A DNA stretch of 64,000 nt from Escherichia coli (GTDB lineage: Bacteria > Pseudomonadota > Gammaproteobacteria > Enterobacterales > Enterobacteriaceae), in assembly GCF_044324875.1 (NCBI RefSeq), contig NZ_CP172185.1; one strand, written 5' to 3'. The notes under the pieces were generated by a model. That model saw only the letters and a program-made list of their open reading frames with translations, was not told where the DNA came from and made no database searches. Position 1 is the first letter of the stretch, and every line of letters starts with the position of its first letter. Of the stretch, positions 54,617 to 64,000 are shown piece after piece. The position numbers and the translations under genes are program-made.

Positions 54617-55309
54617 CTAGTGATAACCACGCGCGGTCATAAAATCCGTAATCGCTTTTTCTGCATCAACCAGCACCTTTTCCAGTGGCTGATTGGCATC
54701 GATATCAACCAGTTGTGCACCACCAAAGGTTAACTGTGGCGTTATTGCAATCTTCCTCGCCAGCGATTCCCGTTTATGGTCGGGTTTACGCGCGCAGGCA
54801 ACTTCAAGGTCAACATTGAGTTTGATGACCAGATCAGGTTTATGGCTCGCCATCCAGTGAAACGCTTTACGTTCCTGGCTTGCCAGCCATGAGACAAACC
54901 GGCCGCCTTCAACGTTAGGCGGGAACACTGTACCATCGTAAGCGCCAGGAATTTGGTCCTGAGGATAACGGTCGGTTAGAACAATTAACCCGCGACGACG
55001 ACAGGCAAGCATATGACGAAAGCGCAGTAAGCGACGGGCGACAAACGCTGTAATTACCAGCGCCGGAACAGGGCCAGGCAATTTTTTTGCTGTTTTCACC
55101 TGATTTCGTTCAATTGTTTTATGTAAGGATTTTCCCATCAACGGTAATTTTGTCACTGCACGACCGACATTTCCGGCCTGTTTTCCTAAATGAACTCTTT
55201 CGGCTGCACCATATTTTTCGACAACGGTAATGAGATGTTCACACACCGTTGACTTGCCTGAACCATCGCTACCAATAACGGCAATTAATGGAGGTGTTAT
55301 TGACTGCAT
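54617..55309 (-). CDS. yghT: P-loop NTPase of unknown function YghT
   Basis: 230-aa ORF with Walker A (GSDGSGKST) and hydrophobic-Asp Walker-B-like LTDRYPQ; paralog of the next two genes. Confidence 0.8.
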
Positions 55310-55389
55310 GAATATATCCTTTAATTTAAATATCCATTAAAAATATTTATTTGGTTAATATGTTTTTATGAAAGCGTAATTCAGGTCAA

Positions 55390-55414
55390 TGTCACAATTA
55401 ACCATTGTCACAAT
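55390..55414. promoter_or_regulatory. Direct repeat TGTCACAAT x2 in the yghT/yghS divergent promoter region
   Basis: tgtcacaat at about 55390-55398 and 55406-55414 within an AT-rich divergent intergenic region; candidate operator. Confidence 0.3.
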
Positions 55415-55482
55415 AAGGTTGAACGGATATTCTGAGCACGGACCACGTAATATTCAATACATTATTTGCTGCCGGGTTTTTC

Positions 55483-56196
55483 GTGAATCAACGTAATATG
55501 TCAATAATTAATTCCACGCCAGTGCGTGTTATTGCCATTGTAGGATGTGATGGTTCAGGTAAATCGACCCTCACGGCAAGCCTGGTAAATGAACTGGCAG
55601 CAAGAATGCCAACAGAACACATTTATCTCGGGCAATCGTCCGGGCGAATTGGCGAATGGATTTCACAGCTCCCTGTTATTGGCGCACCTTTTGGGCGTTA
55701 TCTGCGAAGTAAAGCGGCACATGTGCACGAAAAGCCCTCAACACCGCCTGGCAATATTACTGCGCTGGTTATCTATCTGCTTTCCTGCTGGCGGGCGTAT
55801 AAGTTTCGCAAAATGTTGTGTAAAAGCCAGCAAGGCTATCTGCTCATCACCGACCGCTACCCGCAGGTTGAAGTGCCGGGTTTTCGCTTTGATGGCCCGC
55901 AATTGGCAAAAACCACGGGCGGTAACGGTTGGATAAAAATGTTAAGGCAGCGCGAGCTGAAGCTGTACCAATGGATGGCGTCTTATTTGCCCGTATTGTT
56001 GATTCGTCTTGGCATTGATGAACAAACGGCGTTTGCGCGTAAACCTGACCACCAACTGGCGGCGTTACAGGAAAAAATCGCCGTTACGCCGCAACTGACA
56101 TTCAATGGCGCAAAGATCCTTGAACTGGATGGTCGGCAACCAGCCGATGAAATTATGCAAGCGTCACTACGCGCAATTCACGCCGCGCTTTCCTGA
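55483..56196 (+). CDS. yghS: P-loop NTPase of unknown function YghS
   Basis: 237-aa ORF with Walker A (GCDGSGKST) and ITDRYPQ; paralog of yghT and yghR. Confidence 0.8.
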   Translation: MNQRNMSIINSTPVRVIAIVGCDGSGKSTLTASLVNELAARMPTEHIYLGQSSGRIGEWISQLPVIGAPFGRYLRSKAAHVHEKPSTPPGNITALVIYLLSCWRAYKFRKMLCKSQQGYLLITDRYPQVEVPGFRFDGPQLAKTTGGNGWIKMLRQRELKLYQWMASYLPVLLIRLGIDEQTAFARKPDHQLAALQEKIAVTPQLTFNGAKILELDGRQPADEIMQASLRAIHAALS

Positions 56197-56227: not shown

Positions 56228-56986
56228 ATGGATGCACTACAAACACAAACTGTTAATAGTACAACCGCGCCGCAGCCCAACTACATTCCGGGGCTGATTG
56301 CGGTGGTCGGGTGTGATGGCACCGGTAAATCCACGCTGACCACCGACCTGGTGAAATCGCTGCAACAACACTGGCAAACCGAGCGCCGCTATCTGGGGCT
56401 GCTCTCCGGCGAAGACGGCGACAAAATCAAACGATTGCCGTTGGTTGGCGTCTGGCTGGAACGGCGACTGGCGGCCAAATCCTCGAAAACCCAAAGCATG
56501 AAAACCAAATCTCCAGCGCTATGGGCGGCGGTGATTATGTACTGCTTCTCGCTGCGAAGAATGGCGAATCTACGCAAGGTTCAGCGACTGGCGCAAAGTG
56601 GCGTTCTGGTGGTCAGCGATCGCTTCCCGCAGGCTGAAATTTCGGGCTTTTATTATGACGGACCGGGGATCGGCGTCGAACGTGCGACCGGGAAAATCAG
56701 CATGTTTCTGGCGCAGCGCGAACGGCGTTTATACCAAAAAATGGCGCAATACCGTCCTGAATTAATCATTCGTTTGGGGATTGATATTGATACTGCCATC
56801 TCCCGCAAGCCTGACCATGACTATGCCGAGCTGCAGGACAAAATCGGCGTCATGTCGACGATTGGCTATAACGGCACAAAAATTCTTGAGATTGATTCCA
56901 GAGCGCCCTACAGCGAAGTGCTGGAACAGGCACAGAAGGCGGTTTCTCTGGTTGCCATCGTTTCTGACCGCCGAAGTTTAACTTAA
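56228..56986 (+). CDS. yghR: P-loop NTPase of unknown function YghR
   Basis: 252-aa ORF with Walker A (GCDGTGKST) and VSDRFPQ; third paralog. Confidence 0.8.
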   Translation: MDALQTQTVNSTTAPQPNYIPGLIAVVGCDGTGKSTLTTDLVKSLQQHWQTERRYLGLLSGEDGDKIKRLPLVGVWLERRLAAKSSKTQSMKTKSPALWAAVIMYCFSLRRMANLRKVQRLAQSGVLVVSDRFPQAEISGFYYDGPGIGVERATGKISMFLAQRERRLYQKMAQYRPELIIRLGIDIDTAISRKPDHDYAELQDKIGVMSTIGYNGTKILEIDSRAPYSEVLEQAQKAVSLVAIVSDRRSLT

Positions 56987-57031: not shown

Positions 57032-58381
57032 TTGGCGGGTTTTAACATCAAACATTGGTTTGCAGATGGCGCGTTTCGCACCATTATTCGCAATAGCGCC
57101 TGGTTAGGCTCCAGTAATGTCGTGAGCGCCTTGCTGGGTCTGTTGGCGCTCTCGTGTGCCGGTAAAGGGATGACGCCCGCCATGTTTGGCGTACTGGTGA
57201 TTGTGCAATCGTACGCCAAGTCGATCAGCGATTTTATTAAGTTTCAGACATGGCAGTTGGTGGTGCAGTACGGAACACCAGCATTAACCAACAATAATCC
57301 ACAGCAATTCCGCAATGTCGTCTCATTTTCCTTCTCGCTGGATATCGTCAGCGGCGCGGTGGCGATTGTCGGCGGCATTGCCTTACTCCCTTTTCTTTCC
57401 CATTCATTAGGTCTGGATGACCAAAGCTTTTGGCTGGCAGCGCTGTATTGCACGCTCATTCCTTCAATGGCTTCCTCCACGCCGACCGGCATTCTGCGTG
57501 CGGTAGATCGCTTCGACTTAATTGCTGTACAGCAGGCGACGAAACCTTTTCTGCGCGCAGCGGGGAGCGTCGTTGCCTGGTATTTTGACTTTGGTTTTGC
57601 GGGTTTTGTTATTGCCTGGTACGCCTCGAATCTTGTTGGCGGCACCATGTACTGGTGGTTTGCCGCACGTGAATTACGCCGCAGAAATATCCATAACGCG
57701 TTCAAATTGAATCTGTTTGAGTCTGCCCGACACATCAAAGGCGCGTGGAGTTTTGTCTGGTCAACCAACATTGCCCATTCCATCTGGTCGGCGCGTAATT
57801 CGTGCAGCACAGTGTTGGTGGGGATCGTGTTAGGACCCGCTGCCGCCGGGTTATTTAAAATCGCCATGACATTCTTCGACGCCGCCGGAACGCCAGCGGG
57901 TTTACTGGGCAAAAGTTTTTACCCAGAGGTGATGCGTTTAGATCCGCGTACCACCAGACCGTGGTTGTTAGGCGTGAAGTCAGGTTTACTGGCGGGCGGA
58001 ATCGGTATTCTGGTGGCGCTCGCGGTGTTGATCGTCGGCAAGCCGCTCATTTCGCTGGTGTTTGGCGTTAAGTATCTCGAAGCGTATGACCTGATTCAGG
58101 TGATGCTGGGCGCAATTGTGATCTCGATGCTGGGCTTCCCTCAGGAGTCATTGCTATTGATGGCGGGAAAACAGCGCGCTTTTCTCGTGGCGCAAACCAT
58201 CGCCTCAATCGGCTACATCGTATTGCTGTTCATGTTCTGTCATCTGTTTGGCGTGCTGGGGGCTGCATTTGCTTACTTCGGTGGGCAATGTCTGGATGTG
58301 GTGTTCTCGCTAATTCCGACCTTAAAGGCATTTTTTCAGCGCCATTCCTTGCTTTATAACTCAGCCGGAGAGAAATCCTGA
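57032..58381 (+). CDS. yghQ: Polytopic inner membrane protein, Wzx/MOP-flippase-like (YghQ)
   Basis: 449-aa ORF, hydrophobic throughout with many predicted transmembrane segments; the ORF-track start is a TTG, so the true start may be an internal ATG (for example about 57170). Confidence 0.7.
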   Translation: MAGFNIKHWFADGAFRTIIRNSAWLGSSNVVSALLGLLALSCAGKGMTPAMFGVLVIVQSYAKSISDFIKFQTWQLVVQYGTPALTNNNPQQFRNVVSFSFSLDIVSGAVAIVGGIALLPFLSHSLGLDDQSFWLAALYCTLIPSMASSTPTGILRAVDRFDLIAVQQATKPFLRAAGSVVAWYFDFGFAGFVIAWYASNLVGGTMYWWFAARELRRRNIHNAFKLNLFESARHIKGAWSFVWSTNIAHSIWSARNSCSTVLVGIVLGPAAAGLFKIAMTFFDAAGTPAGLLGKSFYPEVMRLDPRTTRPWLLGVKSGLLAGGIGILVALAVLIVGKPLISLVFGVKYLEAYDLIQVMLGAIVISMLGFPQESLLLMAGKQRAFLVAQTIASIGYIVLLFMFCHLFGVLGAAFAYFGGQCLDVVFSLIPTLKAFFQRHSLLYNSAGEKS

Positions 58382-59217
58382 TGATGAGAAAATATTTCCC
58401 GCTTGAGGCGAGCGAGCGTCTATTTGTTGCGATTGAAGAAGATGATGTTGTTGATGCACAGGTCAGTTTGCCGCCGACTATCGCACTAAGTTGTACCACC
58501 GAAATCATCCATGATAATTACGCGTTATGCCTGCAATTCTGGCTCAATGGCGTCAATCGCCAGGAGTTACTGCGTTTAATATGCAAACAGGCCAAAGGCG
58601 ATGAGCTGACTGCTGATGAGCGCAAACAATTTAAATACATGCGAGCGCGCTACAAGCACCTGCGTTTTGCGCAACGGCTGTATTTAAAAAAGCATCAGGC
58701 CGGATTTTTATTCGGCAAAACGACCGTTTTTTTGGGGCGTTTTCAGGACGGCTTTCGTAACGGTAAGAAAAATATTGTGTCGTATTACGGCAACCTGTTA
58801 CGGGTTTATTTAAGCTCTCCGGTCTGGTCGTTGGTGAACTATTCATTACGCCATAGCCAGTTAGAAAGCGTAAGCGGTTTTATTGCCTATCGGCAAAAGC
58901 AAATGCATACCCTGAAAGAGATAATTGCCAAACCGCGACTAACTGGCAGGGAATTTCATGATGTGCGAAAAATCATCAGCCAGCAGGTTTCTTATTACGA
59001 CACCTTAAGATCGCTTGATCCTGAAAATAAAGAGGCGTTACTGATTTCCCGTTTTCTCGCCGCCATTAATGGTCTGATGGGGGATAAGCACGACGACATG
59101 GTGGCGGATGATATGGAAAACCGCCAGTCGTATGATGCACCGGTGGCGCTGGATAGCGATATTCGCCAGCGTTTAGAACTGCTGATTTCGCGTTTCCCAC
59201 TCTATCCGGAGCAATAA
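58381..59217 (+). CDS. Hypothetical soluble protein (no recognised domain)
   Basis: 278-aa ORF whose ATG overlaps the yghQ stop (ATGA) and whose stop overlaps the next start (TAATG); no transmembrane segment or signal peptide seen. Confidence 0.6.
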   Translation: MMRKYFPLEASERLFVAIEEDDVVDAQVSLPPTIALSCTTEIIHDNYALCLQFWLNGVNRQELLRLICKQAKGDELTADERKQFKYMRARYKHLRFAQRLYLKKHQAGFLFGKTTVFLGRFQDGFRNGKKNIVSYYGNLLRVYLSSPVWSLVNYSLRHSQLESVSGFIAYRQKQMHTLKEIIAKPRLTGREFHDVRKIISQQVSYYDTLRSLDPENKEALLISRFLAAINGLMGDKHDDMVADDMENRQSYDAPVALDSDIRQRLELLISRFPLYPEQ

Positions 59218-59777
59218 TGCCATCTCGTTGGATTTTCGCTCTGATCATCGCACTCTTAGCGCCAGGCGCGGTGGCACACAATTTCGTCACTGGCAAAACG
59301 GTTACCCCTGTTTATATCCAGGAAGGCGGTGAGTTGCTTCTGAAAAGCGACGACGAAATTCACTACCAAAAGTGGAACAGCACACAGCTGGCGGGAAAAG
59401 TTCGCATTATTCAGTATATCGCCGGGCGTAAGTCGGCGAAGAAAAAGAACTCACTGTTAATTAAAGCGGTTGAAGCGGCAAACTTTCCGCAGGATCGTTT
59501 TCAGCCCACCACCATTGTGAACACCGATGATGCCATTTTTGGTACTGGCTATTTTGTCGTTGGCAAAATCGAAAAAAATAAACGCCGCTATCCGTGGGCG
59601 CAATTCGTTATTGACGGCAATGGACAGGGACGCGTTGCCTGGCGGTTGCCGGAGCAGAGTTCAACCATTCTGGTGCTGAATAAAGACGGGCAAATTCAGT
59701 GGGCAAAGGACGGCAGCCTGACGCCGGAAGAGGTAGATCATGTCATTGCGCTGGCGCAGAAACTGATCAATGAATAA
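59217..59777 (+). CDS. Secreted/periplasmic protein with signal peptide (possibly YtfJ-like)
   Basis: 186-aa ORF with N-terminal signal peptide (MPSRWIFALIIALLAPGAVA); family assignment tentative. Confidence 0.55.
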   Translation: MPSRWIFALIIALLAPGAVAHNFVTGKTVTPVYIQEGGELLLKSDDEIHYQKWNSTQLAGKVRIIQYIAGRKSAKKKNSLLIKAVEAANFPQDRFQPTTIVNTDDAIFGTGYFVVGKIEKNKRRYPWAQFVIDGNGQGRVAWRLPEQSSTILVLNKDGQIQWAKDGSLTPEEVDHVIALAQKLINE

Positions 59778-59807
59778 AAAATTCAAAGGATTGAGGGCGT
59801 TAGCGAG

Positions 59808-60878
59808 ATGAAGCTGGTTGAACACTACATCATGCGTGGTACGCGCCGTCTGGTGTTGATTATCGTCGGTTTTCTGATCTTTATTTTCGCCAGCTACTCC
59901 GCACAGCGTTATCTGACCGAAGCGGCAAATGGGACATTAGCTCTTGATGTTGTGCTGGATATCGTTTTCTACAAAGTGCTGATTGCACTGGAGATGTTGT
60001 TACCTGTTGGACTGTATGTGTCAGTTGGCGTGACGCTAGGGCAGATGTATACCGATTCGGAAATTACCGCTATCTCTGCGGCGGGGGGCAGTCCGGGACG
60101 CTTGTACAAAGCCGTTCTTTATCTGGCGATACCGCTAAGTATTTTTGTCACCCTTCTGTCGATGTATGGTCGTCCGTGGGCTTATGCGCAGATTTATCAA
60201 CTGGAGCAACAGTCACAGTCGGAGCTGGATGTTCGCCAGTTGCGGGCAAAGAAATTTAACACTAACGATAACGGACGAATGATCCTTTCCCAGACGGTTG
60301 ATCAGGATAATAATCGCCTGACTGACGCGCTGATTTATACTTCTACTGCCAATCGAACCCGCATTTTCCGCGCCCGTTCGGTTGATGTGGTTGACCCATC
60401 TCCCGAGAAACCGACCGTTATGTTGCACAACGGGACAGCCTATCTTCTCGATCATCAGGGGCGTGACGACAACGAACAGATCTACCGTCATCTGCAATTA
60501 CATCTGAATCCGCTGGATCAAAGCCCTAACGTCAAACGCAAAGCGAAATCGGTCACGGAGCTGGCGCGCTCCGTCTTTCCAGCCGATCATGCCGAACTGC
60601 AATGGCGACAAAGCCGTGGCCTGACAGCATTGTTGATGGCGCTGCTGGCCATTTCATTAAGTCGGGTAAAACCGCGGCAAGGGCGATTTTCAACATTATT
60701 GCCACTGACGTTGCTGTTTATTGCCATTTTTTATGGCGGCGACGTCTGCCGTACGCTGGTGGCTAACGGCGCGATTCCCCTCATTCCTGGTTTGTGGTTA
60801 GTACCCGGACTCATGCTAATGGGCCTGCTGATGCTGGTCGCACGCGACTTCTCTTTGCTGCAGAAATTTTCCCGATGA
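59808..60878 (+). CDS. YjgP/YjgQ-family permease, LptF paralog
   Basis: 356-aa ORF with the N-terminal helix pair, LG..Y.DSEITA motif, a large periplasmic insert and the RQGRF motif typical of LptF/LptG; location shows it is not the canonical lptF. Confidence 0.8.
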   Translation: MKLVEHYIMRGTRRLVLIIVGFLIFIFASYSAQRYLTEAANGTLALDVVLDIVFYKVLIALEMLLPVGLYVSVGVTLGQMYTDSEITAISAAGGSPGRLYKAVLYLAIPLSIFVTLLSMYGRPWAYAQIYQLEQQSQSELDVRQLRAKKFNTNDNGRMILSQTVDQDNNRLTDALIYTSTANRTRIFRARSVDVVDPSPEKPTVMLHNGTAYLLDHQGRDDNEQIYRHLQLHLNPLDQSPNVKRKAKSVTELARSVFPADHAELQWRQSRGLTALLMALLAISLSRVKPRQGRFSTLLPLTLLFIAIFYGGDVCRTLVANGAIPLIPGLWLVPGLMLMGLLMLVARDFSLLQKFSR

Positions 60879-61954
60879 ATGTTTTCAGTCGCTATTTAAT
60901 CCGTCATCTCTTTCTCGGTTTTGCCGCCGCCGCAGGGCTATTGCTGCCGCTTTTTACCACCTTCAACCTGATTAACGAACTGGATGATGTCAGCCCGGGT
61001 GGTTATCGCTGGACTCAGGCGGTGCTGGTGGTGCTGATGACCTTACCGCGCACACTGGTCGAACTTTCGCCGTTTATCGCATTATTGGGAGGGATTGTTG
61101 GCCTGGGGCAGTTATCGAAAAACAGTGAGCTTACCGCCATTCGCAGCACGGGGTTTTCTATCTTCCGTATTGCACTAGTGGCGCTGGTTGCCGGGATATT
61201 TTGGACTGTTTCGTTAGGCGCGATAGATGAGTGGGTGGCGTCGCCATTGCAGCAACAGGCGCTGCAAATCAAATCGACTGCCACCGCGTTGGGGGAGGAC
61301 GATGACATTACCGGCAATATGCTTTGGGCCAGGCGCGGTAATGAATTTGTGACGGTGAAATCGCTGAACGAGCAGGGCCAGCCTGTGGGCGTGGAGATAT
61401 TTCATTATCGCGACGATCTCTCGCTCGAATCCTACATTTTTGCACGCAGTGCCTCCATTGAAGACGACAAAACGTGGATCCTGCATGGTGTGAATCATAA
61501 AAAATGGTTGAATGGCAAAGAAACGCTGGAAACATCAGATAATCTTGCCTGGCAATCGGCCTTCACCAGTATGAATCTTGAAGAGTTATCGATGCCGGGA
61601 AATACTTTTTCTGTCCGTCAACTTAATCATTACATCCATTATTTGCAGGAAACTGGGCAACCCAGCAGCGAATACCGCCTTGCACTGTGGGAAAAACTGG
61701 GACAACCCATCCTGACCCTGGCGATGATTTTGCTGGCTGTGCCGTTTACCTTTAGTGCCCCGCGTTCGCCTGGGATGGGTAGCCGTCTCGCTGTAGGCGT
61801 CATCGTGGGCTTACTTACCTGGATCAGCTATCAAATCATGGTCAATCTGGGATTGCTATTTGCGTTGAACGCACCTGTTACCGCGCTCGGTTTACCGGTA
61901 GCGTTTGTGCTGGTGGCGTTGAGCCTGGTGTATTGGTATGACAGACAACATTAA
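60875..61954 (+). CDS. YjgP/YjgQ-family permease, LptG paralog
   Basis: ORF 60794..61954 trimmed to MNVFSRYLIRHLFLGF (359 aa), whose ATG overlaps the upstream stop (ATGA); LptG-like motifs (SEL.A..S.G, PRSPGMGSR). Confidence 0.8.
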   Translation: MNVFSRYLIRHLFLGFAAAAGLLLPLFTTFNLINELDDVSPGGYRWTQAVLVVLMTLPRTLVELSPFIALLGGIVGLGQLSKNSELTAIRSTGFSIFRIALVALVAGIFWTVSLGAIDEWVASPLQQQALQIKSTATALGEDDDITGNMLWARRGNEFVTVKSLNEQGQPVGVEIFHYRDDLSLESYIFARSASIEDDKTWILHGVNHKKWLNGKETLETSDNLAWQSAFTSMNLEELSMPGNTFSVRQLNHYIHYLQETGQPSSEYRLALWEKLGQPILTLAMILLAVPFTFSAPRSPGMGSRLAVGVIVGLLTWISYQIMVNLGLLFALNAPVTALGLPVAFVLVALSLVYWYDRQH

Positions 61955-61988
61955 ACCCGCCGTGGCGCAACACCACAGCGGGCTCACA

Positions 61989-63161
61989 TTACTGCTTCAG
62001 AGTAGCGAACGCTTGAATGATGGCATCAATTTGCTCACGACTGTGGGCAGCGTTTACGCTACAGCGCAGCAGCGTGATGCCTGCAGGCGCGGCAGGTGGC
62101 AGGATAAGATTCACATAAACGCCCAGCGAAATAAGCTCGCGCCAGATGCGTAAACCTTCCTCTTTCGAACCGATTATTACTGGCACTACCGGGCTAATAT
62201 GTGAACTTAACTCATAACCCAGTTTTTGCAGACCGTCATACAGATGGTTGGCATTATCCATCAGCTTTTGCCGCAACTCTGGTTGTGTAGCAATGGTTCT
62301 TAACGACGAGCGCACGGTCGCAATGCAGGACGGAGAAGGAGAGGCGGTAAAAATATACGGGCGGCTGCCGTAGCGCAGCACTTCCATCGCTTCCGAACCG
62401 ACAGCAAAACCGCCAATCGAGGCCAGACTTTTACTGAAAGTACCAACGATAATATCCACATCATCTTCAACGCCAACGGCTTCAGCCAGTCCGCGCCCCG
62501 TTGCGCCTAACACGCCAAACGAATGCGCTTCATCGACAATCAAATAACCACCGAGACGACGTTTGATATCAACAATTTCCGCCAGCGGCGCAACGTCACC
62601 GAGCATACTGTAGATGCCTTCAACGATGATAATCGCCTCTTTTGCCCGTTCACCGAGGCGAACCATGCGCCGTTCCAGATCTTTAGCATCGTTATGGCGG
62701 AAACGAATAATTTCCGCGCCACCGAGAGAACAGGCGTCATAAATACTGGCGTGGCTGTCGGCATCCAGTAACACCACGGCGTTATGGTCGGCAAGTGCGC
62801 TGATGACGCCTAAATTAGCGGTATAACCGGTTGAAAAAACGATAGCGGTAGGGCGATTAAAAAACTCGGCGATCTCTTTCTCTAACGCCAGATGCGGCGC
62901 ATAACTGCCGTTTGCCATACGAGAACCGGTGGTGCCGGTGCCTTGGGCCGCTAACGCTGCCTGACCTTCGGCGATGGCATCATGATTGAAGGTTAATCCG
63001 AGATAATTATTGGTCCCGGCCAGAATCACTTTTTTATTGCCGATCCGGCCTTCGGTGGCGGAATACACTTCATCAATACAGGTACCAAACGGCGTTAACC
63101 CGTTGTCACTAAATTGCAGTCGCTCGCCAGCAAGACGCGCATATTTATCGTATAGCCCCAT
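61989..63161 (-). CDS. Serine palmitoyltransferase-like PLP-dependent alpha-oxoamine synthase
   Basis: 390-aa ORF with the PLP-lysine motif GTFSKS (Spt-type; BioF has TFGKG, KBL has GTLGKA) and further blocks recalled from Sphingomonas Spt (AIVFSTGY.ANLG, LDADSHASIYD, VDEAHS, RPYIFTAS, PPA.PAG, LLRCS). Confidence 0.8.
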   Translation of the reverse strand: MGLYDKYARLAGERLQFSDNGLTPFGTCIDEVYSATEGRIGNKKVILAGTNNYLGLTFNHDAIAEGQAALAAQGTGTTGSRMANGSYAPHLALEKEIAEFFNRPTAIVFSTGYTANLGVISALADHNAVVLLDADSHASIYDACSLGGAEIIRFRHNDAKDLERRMVRLGERAKEAIIIVEGIYSMLGDVAPLAEIVDIKRRLGGYLIVDEAHSFGVLGATGRGLAEAVGVEDDVDIIVGTFSKSLASIGGFAVGSEAMEVLRYGSRPYIFTASPSPSCIATVRSSLRTIATQPELRQKLMDNANHLYDGLQKLGYELSSHISPVVPVIIGSKEEGLRIWRELISLGVYVNLILPPAAPAGITLLRCSVNAAHSREQIDAIIQAFATLKQ

Positions 63162-63409
63162 TATTTATTCTCCAGCCATGGAAGTAGTGTTTCCATTAAT
63201 TGCGCAGGGGTTTTGACATCCAGCAGAATATTAATAGGAATGGAAATATCGAATCTGTCTTCCAGCATCATTAAGAGATCCATCACTTTGATCGACTCCA
63301 GGCCAAGATCGTTGACGAGATCGCTGTCGGGCTTAATTTCCACACCGTTTTCGACCAAATCCTGTAAACAGGAAAGGATGTAATCCATTACTATTTCACG
63401 ATTTACCAT
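63161..63409 (-). CDS. Acyl carrier protein (dedicated ACP)
   Basis: 82-aa acidic ORF with the phosphopantetheine-attachment context DLGLESIKVMDL; stop overlaps the Spt-like start (TAATG). True start may be the internal Met at about 63388. Confidence 0.7.
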   Translation of the reverse strand: MVNREIVMDYILSCLQDLVENGVEIKPDSDLVNDLGLESIKVMDLLMMLEDRFDISIPINILLDVKTPAQLMETLLPWLENK

Positions 63410-63440: not shown

Positions 63441-64000
63441 TCAAAATAGCCCGTTGCGTAATGCGTGTTCCAGGCTAATCCCGGGAAACCAATTAATATC
63501 TTCAGAAATACGGTTATTACTTGCTGACCAGTCGGCGTGGGTTAATTCACGGATTTTCGAGCGGGTCAGCATAGGTTCTTTACCTGCCAGGCGACTCAAC
63601 GTGGTACTGATATCCGCAAGGCAGGTGAGTACCGACAGAGGAATACCAACCATTCGAACGGAACCACAACGGGCGTCGGCGGCAAGCTGTCTTACGCGTT
63701 GCCAGTCATAGCCGCCGGCGACGCCATCGCATAATTCATAGGTTTGCGTCTGTACAGTTTCGGCGCTTAACCACTGCCCCACGGCTTGCGCGAAATCGGT
63801 GACGTGCAGGAAAGAGAGCTGTGTATCTGGCGCACCAAGTCGTGGCAGTAGGCCGCGCAGCATCCAGTCAAACAGCGGTTTTAACTCTTTATCGCCGGGA
63901 CCATACACGGCTGTCGGGCGAAAAATGCCCAGCGTAATTTCGTCAGCCATTGCGGTCAGTCGTTGTTCGGCGACGTGTTTGGAATTTGCGTACCAGGAGA
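63441..64000 (-). CDS. NAD(P)-dependent epimerase/dehydratase-family reductase, 3' portion (gene runs off the window)
   Basis: Frame is open to the window edge; only the C-terminal part is present, resembling extended-SDR epimerase/reductase proteins. N-terminal Rossmann region lies beyond 64000. Confidence 0.55.
   Translation of the reverse strand, partial: SWYANSKHVAEQRLTAMADEITLGIFRPTAVYGPGDKELKPLFDWMLRGLLPRLGAPDTQLSFLHVTDFAQAVGQWLSAETVQTQTYELCDGVAGGYDWQRVRQLAADARCGSVRMVGIPLSVLTCLADISTTLSRLAGKEPMLTRSKIRELTHADWSASNNRISEDINWFPGISLEHALRNGLF

What the first reader, a model, noticed from the sequence alone, without database searches (positions are those of the whole stretch)
57032..61954. Accessory operon with LptF/LptG paralogs and a Wzx-like flippase, convergent on the sphingolipid-like genes and with no ATPase gene nearby
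yghQ, a 278-aa unknown protein, a secreted 186-aa protein and two YjgP/YjgQ-family permeases are linked by overlapping stop/start codons, which suggests one operon. LptF/LptG normally exist as a single essential pair that moves LPS with the LptB ATPase; a second pair implies a dedicated envelope lipid or glycolipid exporter. No ABC ATPase gene is present in the locus. Its position tail-to-tail with the Spt/ACP genes suggests, by inference only, export of the product of that pathway.
Basis: partly seen in the sequence, partly recalled or inferred. Interest (0 to 1): 0.8.

Follow-up and report, generated by a model that had tools for sequence, protein, structure and literature searches.

The report
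Sphingolipid export genes of E. coli
Most E. coli strains (not K-12) carry a second, divergent copy of the LPS-extracting membrane proteins LptF/LptG, always next to ceramide-synthesis genes; it is most likely a sphingolipid exporter that borrows the LPS motor LptB, a model published for Caulobacter in 2026.

Summary
Five co-directional genes lie at 57032-61954: yghQ (a Wzx/MOP-type flippase), a 278-aa protein, a 186-aa YtfJ paralogue, and lptF- and lptG-like genes. Three of the four junctions overlap. They end tail-to-tail with spt/ACP.

The two permeases are a true second pair. Canonical lptFG is in 5424 of 5426 complete E. coli genomes and this pair in 4091. They are only 26-30% identical to LptF/LptG.

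The pair travels with the ceramide genes: 18 of 18 enterobacterial loci (about 10 genera, two gene orders) and four Pseudomonadaceae-type loci. No ABC ATPase gene belongs to the conserved gene set. The glutamates that dock LptB are conserved, but the LptG lysines that bind lipid A phosphates (K34/K40/K41) are replaced by N/T/D, D/E and D/E.

PLoS Pathog 2024 proposed it. A 2026 bioRxiv preprint showed LptF2/LptG2-LptB complexes in Caulobacter and draws the E. coli UTI89 locus.

New here:
- The 278-aa protein has a CHAD-like fold.
- The YtfJ paralogue has a cysteine-free thioredoxin fold, unlike LptC.
- The operon probably starts at yghS.

No E. coli sphingolipid product was found described in the papers read.

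The parts
54617..55309 (-). yghT: P-loop kinase-like protein (230 aa), divergent from the operon; one of three paralogues
   Evidence: ORF. Weak dTMP-kinase matches only. Walker A GSDGSGKS and a DRY motif, no ABC signature. Present in every enterobacterial locus that reaches that far. dN/dS 0.06.
55405..55433 (+). Promoter-like site in the AT-rich yghT-yghS divergent intergenic region; possible operon promoter (low confidence)
   Evidence: 9/12 match to the sigma-70 consensus. The number of such sites in the region is no higher than in shuffles, so this is a lead only.
55483..56196 (+). yghS: P-loop kinase-like paralogue (237 aa), probable first gene of the operon
   Evidence: 31-nt gap to yghR.
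56228..56986 (+). yghR: P-loop kinase-like paralogue (252 aa)
   Evidence: 45-nt gap to yghQ.
57032..58381 (+). yghQ: MOP/Wzx-type (Polysacc_synt) inner-membrane flippase, 449 aa; truncated in K-12
   Evidence: PF01943 2.7e-08 and PF13440 1.3e-07 over residues 19-283, with a second weak stretch at 316-438. NF007773 MOP flippase 2.4e-08, far below its cut-off. K-12-type strains keep only the first 1069 nt (H28-H29). Same Pfam family as the proposed Caulobacter flippase CC_1166 (IPR002797; PMC11324152 supplement).
58381..59217 (+). 278-aa cytoplasmic all-helical protein with a CHAD-like fold; no sequence family
59217..59777 (+). ytfJ paralogue: secreted 186-aa protein with a thioredoxin-like fold and no cysteine
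59808..60878 (+). lptF2: second LptF-type permease, 356 aa
   Evidence: TIGR04407 318 bits. 26-30% identical to K-12 LptF. Best PDB hits are LptF chains at 1e-20 to 1e-32. The equivalents of E84 and R33 are conserved.
60875..61954 (+). lptG2: second LptG-type permease, 359 aa, translationally coupled to lptF2 (ATGA)
   Evidence: TIGR04408 304.5 bits. About 28% identical to K-12 LptG. The E88 equivalent is conserved; K34/K40/K41 are replaced by N/D/D and R133 by L.
61952..61986 (.). 16-bp GC-rich hairpin that fills the 34-nt gap between the convergent lptG2 and spt stop codons; probable two-way terminator or RNA-end stabiliser
   Evidence: There is no T tract, so the terminator function is inferred.
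61989..63161 (-). spt: serine palmitoyltransferase, 390 aa
   Evidence: NF047599 600 bits, above its cut-off of 500. The E. coli BL21 orthologue was shown to make 3-oxo-sphinganine from acyl-AcpR (PMC9386255).
63161..63409 (-). acpR: specialised acyl carrier protein, 82 aa
   Evidence: ACP profiles match below their cut-offs. The BL21 orthologue ECD_02853 was characterised (PMC9386255).
63441..64000 (-). 3' part of the epimerase/dehydrogenase (cerR/epi) gene, which runs off the window. aasR and yghO (bCerS) follow in complete genomes.
   Evidence: ORF 63441-63950 onwards. Annotation of strain C4.

Best explanation
The region is the transport and head-group half of the enterobacterial sphingolipid locus. 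The other half lies on the opposite strand: spt, acpR, cerR/epi and aasR, with yghO (bCerS) beyond. It makes (dihydro)ceramide at the cytoplasmic face of the inner membrane.

Proposed route, with each step marked as shown or inferred:
(i) The lipid, probably after head-group modification by the three P-loop kinase-like proteins YghT/S/R and perhaps the CHAD-like protein, is flipped across the inner membrane by the MOP-type flippase YghQ. This step is inferred.
(ii) LptF2 and LptG2 form a heterodimeric permease that docks onto the cell's single LptB2 ATPase through conserved coupling helices. It extracts the sphingolipid from the outer leaflet of the inner membrane. This is inferred for E. coli; the complex has been shown biochemically in Caulobacter.
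(iii) The lipid is passed, probably along the shared LptC/A/DE bridge, to the outer membrane. This is inferred and unproven in any organism.

The periplasmic YtfJ paralogue is an accessory factor of unknown role and does not look like LptC. The operon most likely runs yghS-yghR-yghQ-278aa-ytfJ2-lptF2-lptG2.
For: - Second pair: canonical lptFG is in 5424/5426 genomes and this pair in 4091. Identity to the canonical proteins is 26-30%, yet both score above the LptF and LptG equivalog cut-offs.
- Linkage to ceramide genes in E. coli: the 13-kb locus is held at 80% or more in 4051 genomes.
- Linkage across genera: all 13 genes are present in 15 of 18 enterobacterial loci; the other three are cut short by the end of the DNA held. 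The loci come from Escherichia, Shimwellia, Pluralibacter, Pseudocitrobacter, Erwinia, Citrobacter, Pantoea, Serratia and Hafnia. In Serratia and Pantoea the spt block has moved and inverted.
- Linkage outside Enterobacterales: the closest LptG2 relatives (34-51% identical) sit beside spt/ACP/epimerase/AMP-ligase/bCerS-like genes in L006, L007, L026 and L027. The truncated L008 shows the bCerS-like gene.
- Flippase plus LptF2G2 recurs with different flippases: YghQ here, the same Pfam family CC_1166 in Caulobacter, and an MsbA-like ABC exporter in the Pseudomonadaceae-type loci, directly beside spt in L026 and L027 and about 4 kb beyond lptG2 in L007.
- LptB docking: the equivalents of LptF E84 and LptG E88 are invariant. 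The coupling-helix window is the best-conserved stretch between LptG and the LptG2 clade (52% against about 27% overall).
- Different substrate: LptG K34, K40 and K41 (contacts to the lipid A phosphates and core) and R133 are N/T/D, D/E, D/E and L throughout the LptG2 clade. Their roles are given in PMC6744409, where K34E is lethal.
- No ABC ATPase in the module.
- All genes are intact and under purifying selection, dN/dS 0.02-0.16.
- Published experiments: E. coli BL21 Spt/AcpR/AasR are active (PMC9386255). In Caulobacter, lptF2/lptG2 can be deleted only when spt or cpgB is absent, and the proteins co-purify with each other and with LptB (bioRxiv 10.64898/2026.04.12.717747).
Against: - No E. 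coli experiment exists. None of the papers read reports a sphingolipid in E. coli, although BL21 and many studied strains carry the locus. It may be silent in the laboratory.
- Orthology to the Caulobacter pair was not tested because I could not obtain those sequences. Alphaproteobacterial LptF2/G2 are only about 28-33% identical to one another, so the clades may be independent duplications.
- Head-group genes differ completely from Caulobacter and Pseudomonas types. There is no DAGK-type ceramide kinase here, so the substrate may differ in kind.
- A MOP flippase normally handles undecaprenyl-PP-linked glycans. No sphingolipid MOP flippase has been demonstrated.
- The acidic residues in the LptG2 cavity are not what one would naively expect for an anionic lipid.
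Confidence: 0.75

Rival explanations
1. The second LptFG pair exports a variant LPS or another glycolipid, for example a modified lipid A or a Und-PP-derived product flipped by YghQ. Under this view the adjacency to spt is coincidental.
For: Both proteins score above the NCBIfam LptF and LptG equivalog cut-offs, and RefSeq names them lptF and lptG. YghQ belongs to the polysaccharide-flippase family.
Against: The 13-gene module contains no glycosyltransferase, polymerase, ligase or lipid A-modifying gene. Linkage to spt survives rearrangement and extends to distant lineages. The lipid A phosphate-binding lysines of LptG are replaced by acidic or neutral residues.
Confidence: 0.07
2. The locus is a cryptic, functionless remnant in E. 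coli. It is on its way to being lost, as has already happened in K-12, and has no current export role.
For: About 25% of complete genomes lack an intact copy. K-12-type strains carry a deletion next to an IS5 (H70-H72), and other strains carry IS3, IS4 or IS1 insertions (H40, H48, H74). None of the papers read reports an E. coli sphingolipid.
Against: All ten genes tested are intact, with dN/dS of 0.02-0.16 between Escherichia lineages. The same 13 genes persist across about 10 genera. BL21 Spt, AcpR and AasR are enzymatically active (PMC9386255).
Confidence: 0.08
3. LptF2G2 is powered not by LptB but by one or more of the adjacent P-loop proteins YghT/S/R, making a self-contained transporter.
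For: Three ATP-binding proteins are always co-inherited with the permeases. Their Walker A regions weakly match ABC ATPase profiles.
Against: Those matches cover only about 20-35 residues around Walker A. There is no LSGGQ-type signature. A DRY/F motif and the best full-length matches point to dTMP/nucleoside-kinase-like enzymes. Pseudomonadaceae-type loci have LptF2G2 without YghT/S/R. The coupling-helix glutamates typical of LptB docking are conserved. Caulobacter LptF2/G2 bind LptB.
Confidence: 0.04
4. YghQ, the 278-aa protein and the YtfJ paralogue form a separate envelope function. They merely share a transcript with lptF2G2 and have no part in sphingolipid handling.
For: These three genes, and yghT/S/R, are absent from Pseudomonadaceae-type sphingolipid loci. 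YtfJ also exists as a stand-alone gene in K-12.
Against: They are never separated from lptF2G2 and spt in 18 enterobacterial loci, despite the rearrangement. They are translationally coupled here. The 278-aa family has only 342 detectable members, and each of the 18 enterobacterial loci examined carries one inside this gene set.
Confidence: 0.06

Closest known systems
LptF2/LptG2 (CCNA_01214/CCNA_01213; CC_1156/CC_1155) of the Caulobacter crescentus sphingolipid locus (PMC11324152; bioRxiv 10.64898/2026.04.12.717747)
   Same: Both are a second LptF/LptG pair encoded in the spt locus, alongside a canonical pair. Neither locus holds an lptB. Both loci also hold a Polysacc_synt-family flippase candidate (CC_1166 / YghQ). 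The preprint's Figure 2B draws the E. coli UTI89 locus with these homologues.
   Different: The E. coli locus has no LptC2. Its head-group genes are unrelated: three dTMP-kinase-like P-loop proteins and a CHAD-like protein, against CpgA/B/C with a DAGK-type ceramide kinase. It also has a YtfJ paralogue. The product is unknown and no genetics or biochemistry exists. Sequence orthology to the Caulobacter pair was not tested here.
Canonical LptB2FGC lipopolysaccharide extractor (E. coli LptF/LptG; PDB 6mhu, 6mi7, 6s8h)
   Same: Same family profiles, the same length, and about six hydrophobic segments with a roughly 170-residue non-hydrophobic insert where the periplasmic beta-jellyroll lies. Coupling-helix Glu conserved. 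LptF R33 conserved; LptF K317 and LptG K62 and R136 kept basic.
   Different: Only 26-30% identical and non-essential (absent from K-12). LptG K34/K40/K41/R133 are replaced by N/D/D/L. Encoded beside spt rather than pepA.
Pseudomonadaceae-type sphingolipid loci (Pseudomonas, Azotobacter, Azomonas, Stutzerimonas; loci L026, L027, L006, L007)
   Same: Closest LptG2 relatives outside Enterobacterales (34-51% identical). Same seven-gene core: spt, acpR, epi, aasR, bCerS-like, lptF2, lptG2. Same conserved ELDD/ELDE motif in LptG2.
   Different: They use an MsbA-like ABC exporter in place of YghQ. Their head-group genes are DAGK_cat, CDP-OH_P_transf, NTP_transferase and Metallophos. They lack yghT/S/R, the CHAD-like protein and YtfJ.
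CHAD domain proteins (PF05235; Ricinus CHAD 6qv5, Chlorobium 3e0s, Streptomyces PptA 6rn5, E. coli YgiF 5a61)
   Different: No sequence-level match to CHAD in Pfam or in a PDB profile search. No CYTH partner. Polyphosphate binding is untested.

Membership tests
LptF/LptG (YjgP/YjgQ) permease family | Match to the family profiles above curated cut-offs (TIGR04407 LptF, TIGR04408 LptG; PF03739) | tested here: met
   318 bits against a cut-off of 230, and 304.5 bits against 240. PDB hits are all LptF or LptG chains.
LptF/LptG (YjgP/YjgQ) permease family | Six transmembrane helices with a large periplasmic domain between TM3 and TM4 | tested here: inconclusive
   A simple hydropathy scan finds 5 (LptF2) and 6 (LptG2) hydrophobic segments, arranged 3 + gap of about 170 residues + 2-3. 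The fold of the insert was not modelled.
LptF/LptG (YjgP/YjgQ) permease family | Coupling helix with the conserved glutamate (LptF E84 / LptG E88) that docks into LptB | tested here: met
   Glu is invariant in all 13 LptF2/LptG2-clade sequences aligned. The coupling helix is the best-conserved segment for LptG2. The role of E84/E88 is from my own knowledge of the LptB2FG literature, not from a paper read here.
Canonical LPS exporter (functional LptFG equivalog) | Basic residues that bind the lipid A phosphates and inner core (LptG K34, K40, K41, K62, R133, R136; LptF R33, K317) | tested here: not met
   K34 is N/T/D, K40 is D/E, K41 is D/E and R133 is L/I throughout the clade. K62, R136, LptF R33 and K317 remain basic. 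Residue roles are from PMC6744409. The RefSeq name 'LPS export permease' is therefore probably an over-annotation.
Canonical LPS exporter (functional LptFG equivalog) | Single essential pair present in every genome | tested here: not met
   This pair is absent or truncated in about 25% of complete E. coli genomes, including K-12. The pepA-linked pair is in 5424/5426.
Sphingolipid-locus LptF2/LptG2 (Caulobacter type) | Second pair encoded within or next to the spt/acpR/cerR/aasR/bCerS locus | tested here: met
Sphingolipid-locus LptF2/LptG2 (Caulobacter type) | No dedicated LptB-type ATPase in the locus | tested here: met
   There is no ABC_tran gene in the 13-gene module. YghT/S/R lack an ABC signature. 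The rest of the genome was not scanned for a second lptB.
Sphingolipid-locus LptF2/LptG2 (Caulobacter type) | Physical complex LptF2-LptG2-LptB | not testable with these tools
   Needs pull-downs or multimer modelling. Only single-chain prediction was available.
Sphingolipid-locus LptF2/LptG2 (Caulobacter type) | Deletion tolerated only when sphingolipid (anionic head group) synthesis is abolished | not testable with these tools
   Genetic experiment.
Sphingolipid-locus LptF2/LptG2 (Caulobacter type) | Sequence orthology (shared clade) with CCNA_01213/CCNA_01214 | not tested
   The Caulobacter sequences could not be fetched.
MOP (Wzx/MurJ-type) flippase | Polysacc_synt/MOP profile match across the protein | tested here: inconclusive
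   PF01943 2.7e-08 (residues 19-280, plus a weak second stretch) and PF13440 1.3e-07. NF007773 gives 33 bits against a cut-off of 273. This is superfamily membership only; no subfamily or substrate can be assigned.
CHAD domain (PF05235) | Sequence match to the CHAD profile | tested here: not met
   No CHAD hit in Pfam even at E<=10. A profile search of the PDB finds no CHAD chain.
CHAD domain (PF05235) | Two-bundle all-helical CHAD fold | tested here: met
LptC/LptA beta-jellyroll bridge proteins (as candidate identity of the 186-aa secreted protein) | OstA/LptC-type beta-jellyroll fold | tested here: not met
Anti-phage defence systems | Match to PADLOC models | tested here: not met
   Only P-loop-level matches with E>=1.9e-4 for YghT/S/R, and none for the other proteins.

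The most novel reading that the evidence does not exclude
Enterobacterales, including most E. coli, make a sphingolipid whose head group is chemically unlike those of Caulobacter, Sphingomonas or Bacteroides. It would be built by three paralogous dTMP-kinase-like P-loop enzymes together with a CHAD-like (polyphosphate-binding-fold) protein, for example a multiply phosphorylated or nucleotide-derived ceramide. A MOP flippase would flip it, and an LptB2F2G2 complex whose cavity carries acidic rather than basic residues would export it. The cysteine-free thioredoxin-fold YtfJ paralogue would be a new periplasmic hand-off or processing factor. On this reading E. coli has an unrecognised, conditionally expressed outer-membrane lipid.
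Probability: 0.25. Interest if true: 0.7.

Novelty: already known. Interest (0 to 1): 0.35.

Why it matters
E. coli is the textbook organism for LPS transport and is usually said to lack sphingolipids. Yet about three quarters of complete E. coli genomes carry an intact, selectively maintained locus for ceramide synthesis plus a second LptFG pair. B strains have it (PMC9386255), as does UTI89 (preprint Fig. 2B).

If the pair shares LptB, and perhaps the LptC/A/DE bridge, with LPS export, then two lipids compete for one machine. That matters for outer-membrane homeostasis and for antibiotics aimed at Lpt components. It also means RefSeq's 'lptF/lptG' names for these genes are probably misleading.

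The concept itself was published for Caulobacter (2024 hypothesis, 2026 preprint). The value here is confirmation across Enterobacterales and a sharper list of untested, enterobacteria-specific parts.

Tried and rejected
- Defence-system reading: PADLOC gave only P-loop noise. Rejected.
- The 186-aa secreted protein as a substitute for LptC or LptA: the predicted fold is thioredoxin-like, not a beta-jellyroll, and it has no cysteine, so it is not a redox enzyme either. Rejected.
- YghT/S/R as the missing ABC ATPase: no ABC signature, and kinase-type DRY/F motifs. Rejected.
- YghT/S/R as homologues of the Caulobacter ceramide kinase CpgB: CpgB is an LCB5/DAG-kinase-family enzyme with a GGDG motif (PMC10331486), an unrelated family. 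Rejected as homology; a convergent lipid-kinase role remains possible.
- Sequence-level family for the 278-aa protein: Pfam, NCBIfam and a PDB profile search were all empty. Only the fold search was informative.
- Fetching the Caulobacter locus: an exact search of metagenome contigs with a published cpgB primer gave 0 hits. The profile search with non-enterobacterial LptG2 returned Pseudomonadaceae and Enterobacterales but no named Caulobacter protein. A joint phylogeny was therefore not made.
- Promoter and terminator scans were no richer than shuffles. Only the hairpin at 61952-61986 is worth noting.
- A simple hydropathy scan under-counts helices in YghQ (6 found), so it was not used as evidence for or against MOP topology.

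Full report
**1. What is in the sequence**

The window is an Escherichia chromosome segment with the gene order yghU-gss-pitB-yghT-yghS-yghR-yghQ.
- yghQ, 57032-58381, 449 aa
- a 278-aa ORF, 58381-59217
- a 186-aa ORF, 59217-59777
- a 356-aa ORF, 59808-60878
- a 359-aa ORF, 60875-61954

The junctions are TGATG, TAATG, a 30-nt spacer with a ribosome-binding-like site, and ATGA. Translational coupling is therefore real. One qualification applies: the 278/186 overlap exists only because this strain has lost the usual stop codon. Other Escherichia encode 274 aa and stop 12 nt earlier.

yghS and yghR lie directly upstream on the same strand, with gaps of 31 and 45 nt. yghT is divergent across an AT-rich 173-nt region. 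The transcription unit therefore most likely begins at yghS.

A 16-bp GC-rich hairpin fills the 34-nt space between the convergent stop codons of the last gene and spt.

**2. Family assignments**

- The 356-aa protein scores above the curated cut-off for LptF (318 bits against 230). The 359-aa protein does the same for LptG (304.5 bits against 240). Against solved structures, both proteins hit mainly LptF and LptG chains respectively, with only weak cross-hits to the other subunit.
- yghQ matches Polysacc_synt (PF01943, PF13440) and, weakly, a MOP-flippase model.
- The 186-aa protein is a YtfJ-family member (TIGR01626, 213 bits; PF09695). It is 55% identical to K-12 YtfJ, which is a separate gene elsewhere on the chromosome.
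- The 278-aa protein matches nothing in Pfam, NCBIfam or PADLOC.
- The convergent genes are a serine palmitoyltransferase (NF047599, 600 bits against a cut-off of 500) and an ACP.
- In complete genomes these are followed by an epimerase/dehydrogenase, a fatty acyl-AMP ligase and yghO. They correspond to cerR/epi, aasR and the bCerS-type N-acyltransferase. The BL21 versions of Spt, AcpR and AasR have been characterised biochemically (PMC9386255).

**3. Is it a second pair?**

Yes. The canonical lptF-lptG sit beside pepA in K-12, and that DNA is found in 5424 of 5426 complete E. coli genomes. The pair in the window is found in 4091 genomes.

It is only 26-30% identical to LptF and about 28% identical to LptG. 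K-12-type strains retain just the first 1069 nt of yghQ, next to an IS5.

**4. Does it travel with Spt?**

Yes.
- Within E. coli, the whole 13-kb yghT..yghO locus is held at 80% or more in 4051 genomes. That is almost the same number as for the operon alone.
- Across Enterobacterales I examined 18 loci: Escherichia spp., Shimwellia, Pluralibacter, Pseudocitrobacter, Erwinia, Citrobacter, Pantoea, Serratia and Hafnia. All 13 genes were present in 15 of them; the other three are cut short by the end of the DNA held.
- In Serratia and Pantoea the aasR-epi-acpR-spt block has moved to the other side and inverted. The yghT/yghS...lptG2 block remains a unit.
- A search of 1.84 billion representative proteins showed a small LptG2 clade well separated from the bulk of LptG (286-394 bits for clade members, then a drop to about 200 bits and below).
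- The nearest non-enterobacterial members are 34-51% identical. A profile search assigns them largely to Pseudomonas, Azotobacter, Azomonas and Stutzerimonas. They sit in spt/ACP/epimerase/AMP-ligase/bCerS-like loci in every contig long enough to tell (L006, L007, L026, L027; L008 is truncated).
- Those loci carry other head-group genes (DAGK_cat, CDP-OH_P_transf, NTP_transferase, Metallophos). In place of yghQ they carry an MsbA-like ABC exporter: next to spt in L026 and L027, and about 4 kb beyond lptG2 in L007.

The conserved core is thus the five ceramide genes plus lptF2-lptG2. A flippase of varying type accompanies it. yghT/S/R, yghQ, the 278-aa protein and the YtfJ paralogue form an enterobacterial accessory set.

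**5. Mechanistic clues from the proteins**

*Docking to LptB.* The glutamates of the coupling helices (equivalents of LptF E84 and LptG E88) are invariant in all 13 LptF2/LptG2-clade sequences. Their role in docking LptB is from my own knowledge of the LptB2FG literature. For LptG the coupling-helix window is the most conserved stretch between the canonical protein and the LptG2 clade: 52% against about 27% overall. This fits a shared LptB.

*Substrate cavity.* The cryo-EM study of LptB2FG lists LptG K34, K62, R133, R136 and LptF R33 as contacts to the 1-phosphate. LptG K40 and LptF K317 contact the 4'-phosphate, and K41 contacts the core. K34E is lethal (PMC6744409). In the LptG2 clade these positions are:

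| Canonical residue | LptG2/LptF2 clade |
|---|---|
| LptG K34 | N/T/D |
| LptG K40 | D/E |
| LptG K41 | D/E (a conserved ELDD/ELDE motif) |
| LptG R133 | L/I |
| LptG K62 | stays basic |
| LptG R136 | stays basic |
| LptF R33 | stays basic |
| LptF K317 | stays basic |

 The cavity is therefore not tuned to lipid A, and the RefSeq product names are probably over-annotations.

*No ATPase in the module.* YghT/S/R have a Walker A and a DRY/F motif but no ABC signature. Their only extended matches are weak ones to dTMP kinases.

*Selection.* All eleven genes tested are intact, with dN/dS of 0.02-0.16 between Escherichia lineages.

**6. Most likely mechanism**

Ceramide is made at the cytoplasmic face of the inner membrane. 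In Caulobacter, Spt and bCerS are cytoplasmic (PMC11087976).

In Enterobacterales the head group is probably built by YghT/S/R, possibly with the CHAD-like protein. YghQ then flips the lipid. LptF2-LptG2, docked on the housekeeping LptB2, extract it from the inner membrane for delivery to the outer membrane, probably over the shared Lpt bridge.

*Shown here:* the existence of a second pair, its linkage to spt, conservation of the LptB-docking elements, loss of the lipid A-binding lysines, and purifying selection.

*Shown elsewhere:* activity of E. coli Spt/AcpR/AasR (PMC9386255). In Caulobacter, lptF2/lptG2 can be deleted only without spt or cpgB, and the proteins co-purify with each other and with LptB (bioRxiv 10.64898/2026.04.12.717747).

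*Inferred:* every transport step in E. coli, the roles of YghQ, YghT/S/R, the CHAD-like protein and YtfJ2, and use of the LptA/DE bridge.

**7. Comparison with what is known, and novelty**

The 2024 PLoS Pathogens paper proposed that CC_1168, CC_1156 and CC_1155 (LptC2/F2/G2) and the Polysacc_synt-family CC_1166 transport phosphosphingolipids.

The April 2026 preprint from the Klein laboratory supplied genetics and pull-downs. It states that lptF2 and lptG2 occur in many alpha- and gammaproteobacterial sphingolipid loci. Its Figure 2B draws the E. coli UTI89 operons.

What appears unreported in the papers I could read:
- the charge change in the LptG2 cavity across the clade;
- the CHAD-like fold of the 278-aa protein;
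- the thioredoxin-like, cysteine-free nature of the YtfJ paralogue;
- the fixed 13-gene enterobacterial module with three P-loop kinase-like paralogues;
- the swap between MOP-type and MsbA-type flippases between lineages.

Membership in the LptF/LptG family is met. Membership as functional LPS exporters is not: the lipid A contacts are lost and the pair is dispensable. Orthology with the Caulobacter pair could not be tested.

**8. Verdict**

- Novelty: already known as a concept and for this locus.
- Interest is modest (0.35). It rests on the untested enterobacteria-specific parts and on the fact that none of the papers read describes an E. coli sphingolipid.

Noticed in passing
window 57032-58100 (equivalent of K-12 yghQ); hits H70-H72: K-12-type laboratory strains (DH5alpha, CIT, HE_100) keep only yghT/S/R, the first 1069 nt of yghQ, and yghO, with an IS5 between them. 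The K-12 'yghQ' and 'yghO' genes are thus remnants of an IS5-associated deletion of the sphingolipid locus. Other strains carry IS3, IS4/ISVsa5 or IS1 insertions in the locus (H40, H48, H74).
   Followed up: partly
L026:1-1398, L027:577-2304, L007:15010-16722: In Pseudomonadaceae-type sphingolipid loci an MsbA-like half-transporter (ABC_membrane + ABC_tran, about 570 aa) lies directly downstream of spt (L026, L027) or about 4 kb beyond lptG2 (L007). Enterobacteria have the MOP-type YghQ instead. This suggests lineage-specific replacement of the flippase.
   Followed up: partly
window 58381-61954 against 61989-63409: Synonymous divergence between this window and other Escherichia lineages is uneven along the locus. 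dS is 0.7-0.8 for the 278-aa gene, ytfJ2 and lptG2, but 0.1-0.37 for spt and acpR. Only 1 of 4633 genomes matches the operon at 99% or more. This may reflect recombination or distinct alleles of the transport half.
   Followed up: no
window 59203-59217: The 278-aa protein is 274 aa in strain C4 and in other Escherichia. In this strain it reads four codons further (…FPLYPEQ) to a stop that overlaps the ytfJ2 start.
   Followed up: yes
proteins P0032 and P0340: Some E. coli assemblies encode chimeric proteins. One is an 82%-identical relative of the 278-aa protein carrying a GspM domain (PF04612). Another is an LptG2 fragment fused to a GspC domain (PF11356). Both suggest deletions that join this locus to a type II secretion (gsp) gene cluster.
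   Followed up: no
L004:19785-20513: In Hafnia paralvei a 4'-phosphopantetheinyl transferase gene (PF01648 ACPS) lies just beyond yghO. It is a plausible dedicated activator of the specialised ACP. There is no counterpart at that position in the E. coli locus (glcC follows).
   Followed up: no
L003:13856-16919: In Serratia marcescens the lptG2 gene is followed by a phospholipase-like protein (PF26363/DUF8093) and two ankyrin-repeat proteins on the same strand. Their relation to the sphingolipid module is unknown.
   Followed up: no
window 55310-55482: The divergent yghT-yghS intergenic region (173 nt) is very AT-rich and holds the only promoter-like site upstream of the operon (55405-55433). 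It could be a regulatory, possibly silenced, region that explains why no sphingolipid is seen in laboratory cultures.
   Followed up: no
window 59808-60878 (LptF2 position aligned to LptF R212): The residue aligned with E. coli LptF R212 is A/G/S/V in the LptF2 clade. From memory, R212 substitutions in LptF let cells live without LptC. The alignment in this region is weak (about 20% identity), so this is only a lead that LptF2G2 might work without an LptC.
   Followed up: no
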